Below the pieces are notes generated by a model that saw only the letters and a program-made list of their open reading frames with translations, was not told the origin of the DNA and ran no database searches. Of a stretch of 64,000 nt of DNA, positions 15,163-54,022 are shown piece after piece. Position 1 is the first letter of the stretch. Each line of letters begins with the position of its first letter. This DNA comes from Candidatus Nanoarchaeia archaeon (lineage in GTDB: Archaea; Nanobdellota; Nanobdellia; CSSed11-243R1): assembly GCA_028713895.1 (NCBI GenBank), contig JAQTNH010000001.1, forward strand, positions 758,610 to 822,609. Reading direction: 5' to 3'. A program made the position numbers and the translations under genes.

Positions 15163-15246
15163 TTATAGCACCCCTATTTATTGTTACTACTAATAAGTAA
15201 CTATTTATAAACCTTTTGGTGTAAGCATGGCTAGATTGTGTAAAAT

Positions 15247-15446
15247 CGCCGGGACTGGGAATTTCAGCGTCTTTCCGTGCACGCTTTTAGCGCAGCGCGA
15301 AAGGGTGCATTTGAACCCAGATATCCTTGCGGAAACCAGCTAACAGGTAGTTCTGTACGCCTTTTTTCAAAGGCATTTCCAGGCATGCGCGTTTTTCTTC
15401 TTGAAAAAGAAAAGCTTGGCGCCATACCGAGTTAGGCGATCCCGGC
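15247..15446 (-). tRNA. tRNA-Ser(GGA), class II, with three BHB introns (positions 29/30, 37/38, 59/60)
   Basis: Hand-folded. Exons 15446..15417, 15384..15377, 15341..15310, 15260..15247 (84 nt mature); introns 15416..15385 (32 nt), 15376..15342 (35 nt), 15309..15261 (49 nt). Acceptor GCCGGGA/TCCCGGC, 3-bp D stem, anticodon arm CCAGC-CTGGAAA-GCTGG, 15-nt variable arm with GCAA loop, T arm CTGGG-TTCAAAT-CCCAG, G73. Central helices GCGC/GCGC, CUGG/CCUG (one U.U), UUCA/UGAA. 84+116=200 nt matches the span. Confidence 0.8.
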
Positions 15447-15583
15447 AAAGCCTTTCGCTTACCCTGTTCGCAAAGCCTTTAGGGAAAACGAAAAGCTCTG
15501 ACATAAGAAAACTTTTGTTGACTTAAAAAACTATTGTCTATACAACAATAAAGCTTTTATTGGGATATTGGGTTCTTCACATT

Positions 15584-41329: not shown

Positions 41330-41372
41330 TAGATATCTATTTAAATTTCTTTTCTTTCAGCCCTTTAGAAAA

Positions 41373-41523
41373 GCGCTGGCGGAAAGATGCTTCGCAATCA
41401 GCCCTTAAACCTTTCTTGCAAAGAAAGCCTTGGGAAAGAAGCGCTGGCGGAAAGATGCTTCGCAATCAGCCCTTAAGCCTTTCTTGCAAAGAAAGCCTTG
41501 GGAAAGAAGCGCTGGCGGAAAGA
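41373..41523 (+). repeat. 68-nt direct tandem repeat, 2.2 copies, upstream of tRNA-Pro
   Basis: Units 41373..41440 and 41441..41508 differ at 1 of 68 nt (GCGCTGGCGGAAAGATGCTTCGCAATCAGCCCTTAA[A/G]CCTTTCTTGCAAAGAAAGCCTTGGGAAAGAA); partial third unit to 41523; a degenerate relative continues to 41597. Confidence 0.85.
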
Positions 41524-41597
41524 TTATTAAAAGGTAATATCTTTCGTTCCCTCAAGCCCTTCTTGCGAAGAAGCGCTTGCGGAAGAACTAAGCTGTT

Positions 41598-41671
41598 GGG
41601 GCTGTGGTCTAACTTGGTATGATGCGAGGTTCGGGACCTTGTGACTCCCGGTTCAAATCCGGGCAGCCCCA
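41598..41671 (+). tRNA. tRNA-Pro(CGG), intron-less
   Basis: GGGGCTG-TG-GTCT-AACTTGGTA-TGAT-G-CGAGG-TTCGGGA-CCTTG-TGACT-CCCGG-TTCAAAT-CCGGG-CAGCCCC-A; clean cloverleaf. Confidence 0.95.
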
Positions 41672-41673
41672 TT

Positions 41674-45855: not shown

Positions 45856-46006
45856 AGCCTTTTTCTTTTGGAAAGAAAAACGCTGGCGAAAAAGAAAAGT
45901 CTTTTGGGCTTTAAAAGTTTTCTGTGTCGTTGTTCTTTTTCCATTAATGCTTTTTATTGCCAAGAAAAAGGATTAATTTAAAAGTTATCATTTACTTGGA
46001 TATTAC

Positions 46007-50489: not shown

Positions 50490-50523
50490 TGGACTAGGAG
50501 GGATTCGAACCCTCAGCCTCCCA
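50490..50523 (-). other. orphan tRNA 3'-half-like sequence (positions ~40-73 of a second Ala-type tRNA)
   Basis: TGGG-AGGCT-GAGGG-TTCGAAT-CCCTC-CTAGTCC-A, 9 nt downstream of tRNA-Ala. Shares GGGAGGCT with tRNA-Ala, but the T stem and acceptor strand differ by compensatory changes; retains U70; no matching 5' half (GG[G/A]CTAG) seen in this window. Confidence 0.5.
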
Positions 50524-50532
50524 ATATATAAA

Positions 50533-50654
50533 TGGACCCGCCGGGATTCGAACCCGGAGCCTCCCGCATTTTGGTATCTAACGCCCTCCGCAAAATTTTC
50601 TTTTTTGCAAAAGAAATGTTTTAAGCGGACGCGATGCCGTTTCGCCACGGGCCC
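50533..50654 (-). tRNA. tRNA-Ala(GGC) with two BHB introns (33/34 and 37/38) separated by a 4-nt micro-exon
   Basis: Hand-folded. Exons 50654..50623, 50585..50582 (GGCG), 50568..50533 (72 nt); introns 50622..50586 (37 nt; central CCGC/GCGG, bulges UU|A and AG|G) and 50581..50569 (13 nt; central UUGG/CCAA, bulges CG|U and AA|U). Mature GGGCCCG-TG-GCGA-AACGGCA-TCGC-G-TCCGC-TTGGCGT-GCGGG-AGGCT-CCGGG-TTCGAAT-CCCGG-CGGGTCC-A with the Ala identity pair G3.U70. 72+50=122 nt matches the span. Confidence 0.85.
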
Positions 50655-53897: not shown

Positions 53898-54022
53898 TGG
53901 CCCCGGAGGGATTTGAACCCTCGACCCACTGATTAAGAGTATCAACCGCGCCTTTCTTCCGCAAACGCTTCTTTGGAAAGAAGGGCTTTGTCAGTTGCTC
54001 TGCCAGGCTGAGCTACGAGGCC
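53898..54022 (-). tRNA. tRNA-Lys(CUU) with one 51-nt BHB intron at non-canonical position 30/31
   Basis: Exons 54022..53992 and 53940..53898 (74 nt); intron 53991..53941. Central helix CAAC/GUUG, bulges UG|A and AU|A, outer helix GAG/CUC. Mature GGCCTCG-TA-GCTC-AGCCTGGCA-GAGC-A-ACTGA-CTCTTAA-TCAGT-GGGTC-GAGGG-TTCAAAT-CCCTC-CGGGGCC-A. 74+51=125 nt matches the span. Confidence 0.85.

What the first reader, a model, noticed from the sequence alone, without database searches (positions are those of the whole stretch)
15247..15446. tRNA-Ser(GGA) carrying three introns, including one inside the T-loop
**Seen.**
- A 200-nt locus has perfect acceptor ends GCCGGGA/TCCCGGC.
- It yields a cloverleaf only after three segments are removed. 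These are 32 nt at 29/30 (central helix GCGC/GCGC), 35 nt at 37/38 (CUGG/CCUG with one U.U), and 49 nt at 59/60 (UUCA/UGAA, bulges AA|U and AU|U).
- The product is an 84-nt class II tRNA. It has a 3-bp D stem, loop CUGGAAA, a long variable arm and G73.
- The anticodon stem CCAGC/GCUGG exists only after intron 1 is removed, so splicing must be ordered.

**Established.** Multi-intron tRNAs with 29/30 and 59/60 positions are known mainly from Thermoproteales and a few other lineages.

**Inference.** This organism has an EndA with relaxed (hBH/HBh') specificity.
Basis: partly seen in the sequence, partly recalled or inferred. Interest (0 to 1): 0.7.

Follow-up and report, generated by a model that had tools for sequence, protein, structure and literature searches.

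The report
Three-intron serine tRNA gene, DPANN archaeon
This is a real serine tRNA gene broken into four pieces by three short archaeal introns, one of them inside the T-loop; standard gene finders miss it, but genes of this kind are already known, so it is a well-supported new example and not a new phenomenon.

Summary
Removing 32, 35 and 49 nt at tRNA positions 29/30, 37/38 and 59/60 gives an 84-nt class II tRNA-Ser(GGA).

The best evidence is comparative:
- Related metagenomic contigs carry the same gene with 100% identical exons but other intron sets. L122 has only the T-loop intron, L134 only a 37/38 intron, and L123 all three with a different intron 1. All three junctions are therefore confirmed independently.
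- All 23 cloverleaf stem pairs hold in all 4 distinct spliced sequences, with 5 compensatory pairs.
- Bulge-helix-bulge cores sit exactly at the junctions: 4/4, 3/4 and 4/4 central pairs.

The host is a Candidatus Nanoarchaeia (DPANN) archaeon, not Thermoproteales. Three-intron tRNAs, 59/60 introns in DPANN and sequential motif formation are all published, so this is a new member of a known kind.

The inference of a relaxed-specificity endonuclease could not be tested. Strictly ordered splicing is only plausible.

Extras:
- Intron sequences recur at different positions in orthologues and in the flanks of other tRNA genes in the window, which suggests mobility.
- The window also hides a two-intron tRNA-Ala, a one-intron tRNA-Lys and an orphan tRNA 3' half.

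The parts
15417..15446 (-). Exon 1 (30 nt): acceptor 5' strand GCCGGGA, D arm (3-bp stem GCC/GGC), G26, and positions 27-29 (CCA) of the anticodon stem
   Evidence: Identical in L122, L123 and L134. The D-stem pair covaries in L125 and L130.
15385..15416 (-). Intron 1 (32 nt) at 29/30. BHB core GCGC/GCGC (4/4), bulges CA|A and AU|G, long inner hairpin (10/11 bp), weak outer helix (HBh'-like).
   Evidence: Absent at exactly this junction in L122, L134, L125 and L130. L123 has a 48-nt variant with the same ends. The central helix has P 0.5-0.95 in the full precursor.
15377..15384 (-). Exon 2 (8 nt, GCCUGGAA): positions 30-37, including anticodon GGA
   Evidence: Contiguous with exons 1 and 3 in L122.
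15342..15376 (-). Intron 2 (35 nt) at the canonical 37/38 position. Relaxed BHB: CUGG/CCUG with U.U, bulges AA|A and UU|A. Its outer helix is the anticodon stem, of which only 2 bp are available until intron 1 is removed.
   Evidence: Absent in L122. L123 has a 34-nt variant whose two substitutions keep the internal hairpin paired. L134, L125 and L130 carry unrelated introns at the same position.
15310..15341 (-). Exon 3 (32 nt): positions 38-59. Contains the anticodon stem 3' strand GCUGG, the 15-nt variable arm, the T-stem 5' strand CUGGG and T-loop UUCAAA.
   Evidence: Identical in L122, L123 and L134.
15261..15309 (-). Intron 3 (49 nt) at 59/60 inside the T-loop. Strict hBHBh' motif: UUCA/UGAA 4/4, bulges AA|U and AU|U, outer helix = 5-bp T stem, inner helix 2 bp followed by a long irregular hairpin.
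   Evidence: Absent in L134 (identical exons), L125, L130 and L124, all of which read CTGGGTTCAAATCCCAG or an equivalent. Identical in L122 and 48/49 in L123. A different 33-nt intron sits at the same site, with the same UUCA/UGAA core, in Woesearchaeota locus L044.
15247..15260 (-). Exon 4 (14 nt): U60, T-stem 3' strand CCCAG, acceptor 3' strand UCCCGGC, discriminator G73. No encoded CCA.
   Evidence: T-stem pairs covary across intron 3.

Best explanation
The locus is a functional gene for tRNA-Ser(GGA) in a Candidatus Nanoarchaeia (DPANN) archaeon. The gene is interrupted by three short protein-spliced (bulge-helix-bulge, BHB) introns at positions 29/30, 37/38 and 59/60.

Proposed mechanism:
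- The 200-nt precursor is transcribed from the minus strand.
- The archaeal splicing endonuclease EndA cuts in the two 3-nt bulges of each BHB motif.
- An RtcB-type ligase joins the four exons.
- CCA is added afterwards.

Introns 1 and 3 present their motifs independently in the primary transcript. Intron 2's motif gains its full outer helix (the anticodon stem) only once intron 1 is out, so I1 before I2 is the likely order.

Shown here: the exon/intron structure, the junctions, the cloverleaf with covariation, and the BHB geometry.
Inferred: cleavage by EndA, ligation, the order of splicing, and expression.

The introns belong to sequence families that turn over quickly and occupy different positions in orthologous genes. 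They were therefore probably gained by a DNA-level insertion or transposition process, as described for Thermoproteales.
For: 1. In-silico splicing gives an 84-nt class II tRNA with anticodon GGA, G73, T-loop UUCAAAU and a 3-bp D stem.

2. Natural intron-less controls with 100% identical exons:
- L122 lacks I1 and I2 and keeps I3.
- L134 lacks I1 and I3 and has a different 37/38 intron.
- L123 has all three introns, with a 48-nt I1.
The alignment gaps fall exactly on the predicted junctions.

3. The syntenic orthologue L125 carries only a canonical intron and is called tRNA by Rfam at 43.8 bits. The paralogue L124 scores 40.6 bits.

4. On 4 distinct spliced sequences, all 92 stem cells pair and 5 pairs carry double (compensatory) changes. 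These include anticodon-stem and T-stem pairs that span introns. Slid controls pair at only 28-48%.

5. BHB cores sit at the independently fixed junctions: 4/4, 3/4 and 4/4, each with 3-nt bulges.

6. Partition-function folding gives the I1 and I3 central helices probabilities of 0.35-0.95 in the full precursor.

7. The locus is intergenic and identical in three assemblies.

8. The same window holds two further intron-disrupted tRNA genes, so the organism must splice such introns.

9. Literature precedent:
- 59/60 introns in ARMAN-2 were cleaved in vitro (PMC3239211).
- Archaeal tRNAs carry up to three introns, with sequential BHB formation (PMC8450103, PMC4033280).
Against: - There are no expression or tRNA-seq data, so splicing, its order and aminoacylation are all inferred.
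- Intron 2's central helix has a U.U mismatch and is predicted at P~0 in every context.
- Intron 1's outer helix is weak.
- EndA and the ligase were not found in the window and could not be retrieved for this genome.
- ARAGORN's acceptance of the spliced product is weak evidence. It accepts almost any internal deletion once the acceptor, D and T arms are intact.
- Covariation rests on only four distinct sequences.
- I could not check whether the 956-kb genome holds a second, uninterrupted Ser(GGA) gene.
Confidence: 0.92

Rival explanations
1. The locus is a dead tRNA gene. A former tRNA-Ser(GGA) was inactivated by three insertions of a tRNA-associated repeat element. The inserts are not spliced, and another gene supplies the tRNA.
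For: The insert sequences belong to repeat families that also occur outside tRNA bodies, in the flanks of tRNA-Pro, tRNA-Thr and the orphan 3' half. Intron 2's motif is imperfect. The rest of the genome could not be searched for a second copy.
Against: All 84 exon nucleotides are identical across relatives whose flanking genes are only 87% identical in DNA, or 67% identical in protein. Every insert sits in a BHB motif in the correct register. Every orthologue found also carries at least one intron, so introns are the normal state of this gene. The genome is only about 1 Mb, and genomes that small usually carry single-copy tRNAs (inference).
Confidence: 0.05
2. Chance resemblance or an assembly artefact: unrelated sequence that happens to give a cloverleaf after three arbitrary deletions.
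For: ARAGORN is permissive towards internal deletions. A reader free to choose three deletions has many degrees of freedom.
Against: The junctions are fixed independently by intron-less alleles. The sequence is identical in three assemblies. Compensatory changes are present. The chance probability for the BHB cores at fixed junctions is about 6e-5 (own arithmetic).
Confidence: 0.01
3. The gene and its exons are real, but at least one insert is removed by a route other than canonical EndA cleavage. For example, intron 2's relaxed motif might need a mature-domain-dependent or accessory mechanism, or some of the inserts might be retained in a fraction of the molecules.
For: Intron 2's central helix (3/4 pairs with U.U) has P~0 in folding. 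The 37/38 introns of L125 and L130 have even poorer strict-geometry cores, 2/4 and 1/4. This suggests the lineage's enzyme tolerates, or recognises differently, anticodon-loop introns.
Against: Relaxed HBh', hBH and BHL motifs are documented EndA substrates in lineages whose enzymes carry specific loops (PMC5829648, PMC3239211). No other archaeal tRNA splicing route is known (established knowledge).
Confidence: 0.02

Closest known systems
Multi-intron tRNA genes of Thermoproteales (e.g. Pyrobaculum calidifontis, Thermofilum pendens; Sugahara 2007/2008, as summarised in PMC4033280 and PMC8450103)
   Same: [quoted passage not shown] Some motifs form only after a neighbouring intron is removed. 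Standard tRNA finders miss these genes.
   Different: The lineage here is DPANN (Candidatus Nanoarchaeia), not Crenarchaeota. The endonuclease is therefore expected from the literature to be an alpha4 type with the L3 loop, not (alpha-beta)2 with the crenarchaeal loop. That was not tested here.
ARMAN-2 (Micrarchaeum) pre-tRNA-Cys(GCA) with a 59/60 intron, and pre-tRNA-Pro(GGG) with 53/54 + 59/60 introns (PMC3239211)
   Same: T-loop intron at exactly 59/60 in a DPANN archaeon. The ARMAN-2 59/60 intron was cleaved in vitro by that organism's endonuclease.
   Different: The motif here is a strict hBHBh'. It sits in a class II tRNA-Ser and is combined with 29/30 and 37/38 introns. The host is a different DPANN class, whose EndA type is unverified.
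[quoted passage not shown]
   Same: Similar intron sequences occur at different positions and in different tRNAs. Here, the window's 59/60 intron matches the 37/38 introns of L130 and L124, and the 29/30 intron matches L125's 37/38 intron.
   Different: Seen here in DPANN. The same sequence family also occurs as tandem repeats and hairpins in tRNA flanks. I did not find that described in the papers I read.
tRNA-Thr(GGU) locus heterogeneity in Caldiarchaeum subterraneum (PMC3293823)
   Same: The same tRNA gene is found with different intron numbers among related genomes, which implies fast intron gain or loss.
   Different: Here the variants come from species-level relatives (87% nt identity in flanking genes), not from one population. 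No recombinase-bearing element was seen next to the locus.

Membership tests
Archaeal BHB (EndA-spliced) tRNA intron | 4-bp central helix flanked by two 3-nt bulges on opposite strands, with each splice site after the 2nd bulge nucleotide | tested here: met
   I1: GCGC/GCGC 4/4, bulges CA|A and AU|G. I3: UUCA/UGAA 4/4, bulges AA|U and AU|U. I2: CUGG/CCUG 3/4 (U.U), bulges AA|A and UU|A, so relaxed. Alternative registers score much worse.
Archaeal BHB (EndA-spliced) tRNA intron | Flanking helices h and h' on both sides (strict hBHBh') | tested here: inconclusive
   I3: strict, with a 5-bp outer helix (the T stem) and a 2-bp inner helix. I1: inner helix 10/11, outer helix weak (|x||), so HBh'-like. 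I2: outer helix only 2 bp until I1 is removed, then 6 bp.
Archaeal BHB (EndA-spliced) tRNA intron | Removal restores a canonical cloverleaf, confirmed by homologues that lack the intron at the same junction | tested here: met
   L122 (no I1, no I2), L134 (no I1, no I3), and L125/L130 (no I1, no I3). Covariation: 100% paired, 5 double changes.
Archaeal BHB (EndA-spliced) tRNA intron | Cleavage by the splicing endonuclease and ligation by RtcB; presence of those genes in the genome | not testable with these tools
   No EndA-like ORF in the 64-kb window (the query was recalled from memory, so this is a lead only). There are no RNA data.
Archaeal class II tRNA-Ser | Long variable arm, G73 discriminator, Ser anticodon, 3-bp D stem | tested here: met
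   15-nt variable arm with a 3-bp stem, G73, GGA anticodon in loop CUGGAAA, D stem GCC/GGC. Rfam tRNA hit on the orthologue L125. Charging by SerRS was not tested.
Thermoproteales multi-intron tRNA set | Host belongs to the order Thermoproteales | tested here: not met
   NCBI names the window's proteins 'Candidatus Nanoarchaeia archaeon'. This is the same kind of gene in a different lineage.
Self-splicing group I / group II intron | Ribozyme core of a few hundred nt, detectable by Rfam | tested here: not met
   The inserts are 32, 35 and 49 nt. There is no Rfam match even at E<=10.
Split or permuted tRNA gene | tRNA pieces encoded at separate loci or in permuted order | tested here: not met
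   All four exons are colinear on one strand within 200 nt.

The most novel reading that the evidence does not exclude
The introns are copies of an active, tRNA-targeted mobile element family in Nanoarchaeia. The same short hairpin sequences occur in four settings:
- at 29/30, 37/38 and 59/60 in orthologous tRNA-Ser genes;
- in the introns of tRNA-Lys and tRNA-Ala;
- as a 68-nt tandem array directly upstream of tRNA-Pro;
- next to an orphan tRNA 3' half.

The identical mature tRNA also exists in at least four intron configurations among relatives. If the element is still moving, this lineage would be a natural system in which the unknown mechanism of archaeal tRNA-intron transposition could be caught in the act.
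Probability: 0.3. Interest if true: 0.65.

Novelty: new member of a known kind. Interest (0 to 1): 0.4.

Why it matters
1. Annotation. ARAGORN and Rfam's tRNA model miss this gene outright. In the same 64 kb they also miss the tRNA-Lys gene. For the tRNA-Ala gene, ARAGORN reports only a chimeric tRNA-Ser(cga), while Rfam detects it as a tRNA with a 53-nt insert. DPANN genomes are often described as lacking tRNAs, and Kaneta et al. (PMC5829648) already suspected unidentified disrupted genes. This locus is a fully documented example. It shows that an apparently missing tRNA-Ser(GGA) should not be read as a reduced decoding capacity.

2. Enzymology. The precursor offers a strict T-loop motif, an HBh'-like motif and a relaxed anticodon-loop motif in a single substrate. 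That makes it a good test of the specificity of the poorly characterised DPANN endonucleases and of splicing order.

3. Evolution. The series window/L123/L122/L134/L125/L130 shows one tRNA in several intron states, with intron families that change position. This extends the intron-transposition picture from Thermoproteales to DPANN.

Tried and rejected
- Plus-strand reading of the locus: no cloverleaf elements there. The gene is on the minus strand.
- ARAGORN (with and without intron mode) and Rfam (gathering threshold and E<=10) on the unspliced locus: nothing.
It returned mostly Desulfurococcales tRNA-Ser(GCU), plus chance bacterial hits, and not the window's own genome. Only L044 was useful.
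- Literature search for the assembly and run accessions: no paper found.
- Antiporter orthologues L126-L129, L131-L133 and L135: no tRNA-Ser next to the gene. Synteny is not conserved there, or the contig ends too early.
- Brute-force deletion followed by ARAGORN as a junction test: rejected as uninformative. ARAGORN accepts nearly any internal deletion.
- EndA in the window: a phmmer search with M. jannaschii EndA recalled from memory gave a best E of 0.65. I ran no further search on EndA, because the hits could not be tied to this genome.
- C/D-box guide RNA inside intron 3: there is a CUGA but no C box, and 49 nt is too short. Rejected by inspection.
- A 5' partner for the orphan 3' half: none in the window.
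- A hypothetical fourth intron at 2/3, suggested by the 11-nt direct repeat in the leader: no BHB pairing is possible. Rejected by inspection.

Full report
OBSERVATION

The two acceptor strands are mutually complementary, so GCCGGGA...TCCCGGC appears on both strands. Only the minus strand carries the anticodon loop CTGGAAA, the split T-arm CTGGG-TTCAAA|...|T-CCCAG and a G discriminator.

- E1, 30 nt, 15446-15417
- I1, 32 nt, 15416-15385
- E2, 8 nt, 15384-15377
- I2, 35 nt, 15376-15342
- E3, 32 nt, 15341-15310
- I3, 49 nt, 15309-15261
- E4, 14 nt, 15260-15247

In standard tRNA numbering, with one extra D-loop residue (17a), the inserts lie at 29/30, 37/38 and 59/60. The spliced 84-mer is GCCGGGATCGCCTAACTCGGTATGGCGCCAGCCTGGAAAGCTGGTTTCCGCAAGGATATCTGGGTTCAAATCCCAGTCCCGGCG. 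ARAGORN calls it tRNA-Ser(GGA).

The unspliced locus is found neither by ARAGORN nor by Rfam, even at E<=10. It lies in an intergenic gap between ORFs that end at 15193 and start at about 15560.

A CAUTION ABOUT THE FIRST TEST

ARAGORN's call on a spliced product is weak evidence for the junctions. On another interrupted tRNA in this window, ARAGORN accepted almost every internal deletion once the acceptor, D and T arms were intact. I therefore looked for evidence that does not depend on a gene finder.

DECISIVE COMPARATIVE EVIDENCE

I used a metagenome scan with an exon-1 pattern and look-ups of contigs that encode orthologues of the neighbouring Na+/H+ antiporter. These recovered the same gene in several intron states.

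- L122 has exons and upstream flank matching the window. It lacks I1 and I2 and keeps an identical 49-nt I3.
- L123 has all three introns. Its I1 is a 48-nt variant with the same ends. Its I2 has one deletion and two substitutions that keep the internal hairpin paired. Its I3 differs by one base.
- L134 has exons 100% identical to the window's. It carries only a different 40-nt intron at 37/38, with nothing at 29/30 and an uninterrupted T-loop.
- L125 (syntenic) and L130 carry slightly diverged Ser(GGA) genes with only a 37/38 intron.

In the three-way alignment the gaps fall exactly at the predicted junctions. Rfam's tRNA model scores L125 at 43.8 bits and the paralogue tRNA-Ser(UGA) in L124 at 40.6 bits. 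It misses every copy with a T-loop insert.

On the four distinct spliced sequences, all 92 stem cells form standard pairs. Five pairs carry changes on both sides, including anticodon-stem and T-stem pairs that span the introns. With partners slid by 1-3 columns, pairing falls to 28-48%.

The same 200 nt are present in two further assemblies, L001 and L002.

SPLICING MOTIFS

The junctions are fixed independently of any structure search, so the BHB geometry can be tested at those points.

- I1: central helix GCGC/GCGC (4/4), bulges CA|A and AU|G, inner helix 10/11, weak outer helix. This makes it HBh'-like.
- I2: CUGG/CCUG with a U.U (3/4), bulges AA|A and UU|A.
- I3: UUCA/UGAA (4/4), bulges AA|U and AU|U. 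The outer helix is the 5-bp T stem and the inner helix is 2 bp, so this is a strict hBHBh' motif.

Neighbouring registers that give the same product score far worse. By my own arithmetic, the chance of cores at least this good at three fixed junctions is about 6e-5.

ORDER OF SPLICING

Partition-function folding of the full precursor and of all partly spliced forms gives three results.
- The I1 central helix forms with P 0.5-0.95, independently of the other introns.
- The I3 central helix forms with P 0.35-0.4, also independently, with flanking helices at about 0.9.
- The I2 central helix is never predicted. Its outer helix, the anticodon stem, rises from P~0 to 0.87-0.96 only after I1 is removed.

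Splicing of I1 before I2 is therefore plausible. Two outer base pairs (G30-C40 and C31-G39) are available beforehand, and relaxed-specificity endonucleases cut motifs that lack a helix (PMC5829648).

A cleaner case of obligatory order sits in the same window. In tRNA-Ala(GGC), the 13-nt 37/38 intron needs U32 U33 G34 G35 as one strand of its central helix, and a 37-nt intron at 33/34 splits that strand.

ORGANISM AND KNOWN BIOLOGY

NCBI names the window's proteins 'Candidatus Nanoarchaeia archaeon'. The longest contig that carries them is 956 kb. This is a DPANN archaeon, not Thermoproteales.

Every unusual element has a published precedent.
- Archaeal tRNAs carry up to three introns, and some BHB motifs form only after a neighbouring intron is removed (PMC8450103, PMC4033280).
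- Introns at 59/60 in the T-loop of ARMAN-2 tRNAs were cleaved in vitro by that DPANN organism's endonuclease (PMC3239211).
[quoted passage not shown] This is associated with alpha4-type EndA carrying an L3 loop. The same paper explicitly suspects that missing tRNAs are unidentified disrupted genes (PMC5829648).

A Woesearchaeota genome (L044) has another class II tRNA with a 33-nt intron at the same 59/60 site and the same UUCA/UGAA core.

The finding is therefore a new, very well supported member of a known kind.

No EndA-like ORF is in the window (a lead only). The strict T-loop motif would not require relaxed specificity in any case.

INTRON TURNOVER AND POSSIBLE MOBILITY

The intron sequences are related across positions. 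Numbers below are dinucleotide-preserving shuffles that reached the observed local alignment score.
- The window's 59/60 intron aligns with the 37/38 introns of L130 and L124: 0 of 1000 shuffles.
- The 29/30 intron of the window aligns with L125's 37/38 intron: 1 of 1000. The L123 version does so at 0 of 1000.
- The window's I3 and I1 are unrelated to each other: 578 of 1000.

The same sequence family also appears outside tRNA bodies.
- A 68-nt tandem array of 2.3 copies directly upstream of tRNA-Pro, with a further degenerate copy after it.
- A hairpin upstream of tRNA-Thr.
- A copy downstream of an orphan tRNA 3' half.
- A copy inside the tRNA-Lys intron.

All 15 nhmmer hits at E<0.05 in the window fall within or beside tRNA loci.

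The relatives that differ in intron content are at species level, not strains. Flanking genes are 87% identical in DNA for L122 and L123. The antiporter protein is 67-70% identical for L134, L125 and L130.

This matches the intron-transposition picture drawn for Thermoproteales (Fujishima 2010, via PMC4033280 and PMC4090602), now seen in a DPANN lineage. Whether the element is currently mobile is open. I give that 0.3.

VERDICT

The locus is a genuine tRNA-Ser(GGA) gene with three BHB introns in a Nanoarchaeia genome. It is a new member of a known kind.

Interest is moderate (0.4). The locus is useful for DPANN tRNA annotation, for testing endonuclease specificity and splicing order, and as a comparative series for intron gain and loss. 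It would not surprise a specialist.

Not shown: expression, actual splicing, its order, the enzyme, and whether a second Ser(GGA) gene exists in the genome.

Noticed in passing
window 50533..50654 (- strand): tRNA-Ala(GGC), with G3.U70 and A73, carrying two introns. The first is 37 nt at 33/34 (core CCGC/GCGG 4/4). The second is 13 nt at 37/38, and its central helix UUGG/CCAA can form only after the first intron is removed. The spliced 72-mer is called tRNA-Ala(ggc). On the unspliced sequence, ARAGORN gives nonsense calls (Phe-aaa, or a chimeric Ser-cga at 50490..50584).
   Followed up: partly
window 50491..50523 (- strand): Orphan tRNA 3' half (GGGAGGCTGAGGGTTCGAATCCCTCCTAGTCCA). It has a variable region, T arm, acceptor 3' strand with U70, and A73. 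It lies 10 nt (TTTATATATT) after tRNA-Ala and is followed by an intron-like hairpin. No matching 5' half (GGRCTRG plus a D arm) is in the window. It could be one half of a split tRNA, as in Nanoarchaeum, or a relic. Unexplained.
   Followed up: partly
window 53898..54022 (- strand): Hidden tRNA-Lys(CUU) with a 51-nt intron at 32/33 in a relaxed (bulge-helix-loop-like) motif. ARAGORN and Rfam both miss it. I found it through its T-arm. Its intron belongs to the same sequence family as the other introns.
   Followed up: partly
window 41364..41586 (+ strand), just upstream of tRNA-Pro(CGG) at 41597..41672: Tandem array of a 68-nt unit (TRF: 41371..41524, 2.3 copies, 98% matches), followed by a degenerate copy. 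The unit is significantly similar to tRNA introns of L124, L125, L123 and L134. So intron-like elements sit in a tRNA 5' flank.
   Followed up: partly
window 45861..45899 (- strand), upstream of tRNA-Thr(UGU): Hairpin TTTTCTTTCCAAAAGAAAAAGG, preceded by CTTTTCTTTTTCGCC. It resembles the hairpin in intron 1 of tRNA-Ser.
   Followed up: no
window ~15445..15482 (- strand; 5' leader of tRNA-Ser plus the first two tRNA bases): Compared with L122 and L123, the window has a 25-nt insertion in the leader. It is flanked by an 11-nt direct repeat, AAAGGCTTTGC, and the second copy includes the first two bases of the tRNA. No BHB can be drawn. It may be a slippage event or an insertion footprint.
   Followed up: no
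L044 3990..4110 (+), Woesearchaeota MAG JBJKQO010000023.1: Class II tRNA with a 33-nt T-loop intron at 59/60. The anticodon loop UUUAGGC gives anticodon UAG (Leu by anticodon), but the discriminator is G73 and the acceptor/D arm are Ser-like. The Ser-like 5' part is partly forced by my search pattern. Amino-acid identity is ambiguous.
   Followed up: no
L131 7111..7833 and L132 5998..6720: A 240-aa LAGLIDADG-domain ORF lies between the S17e and Alba genes in these relatives. It is absent from the same interval in L126 and L135. It is possibly a free-standing homing endonuclease insertion.
   Followed up: no
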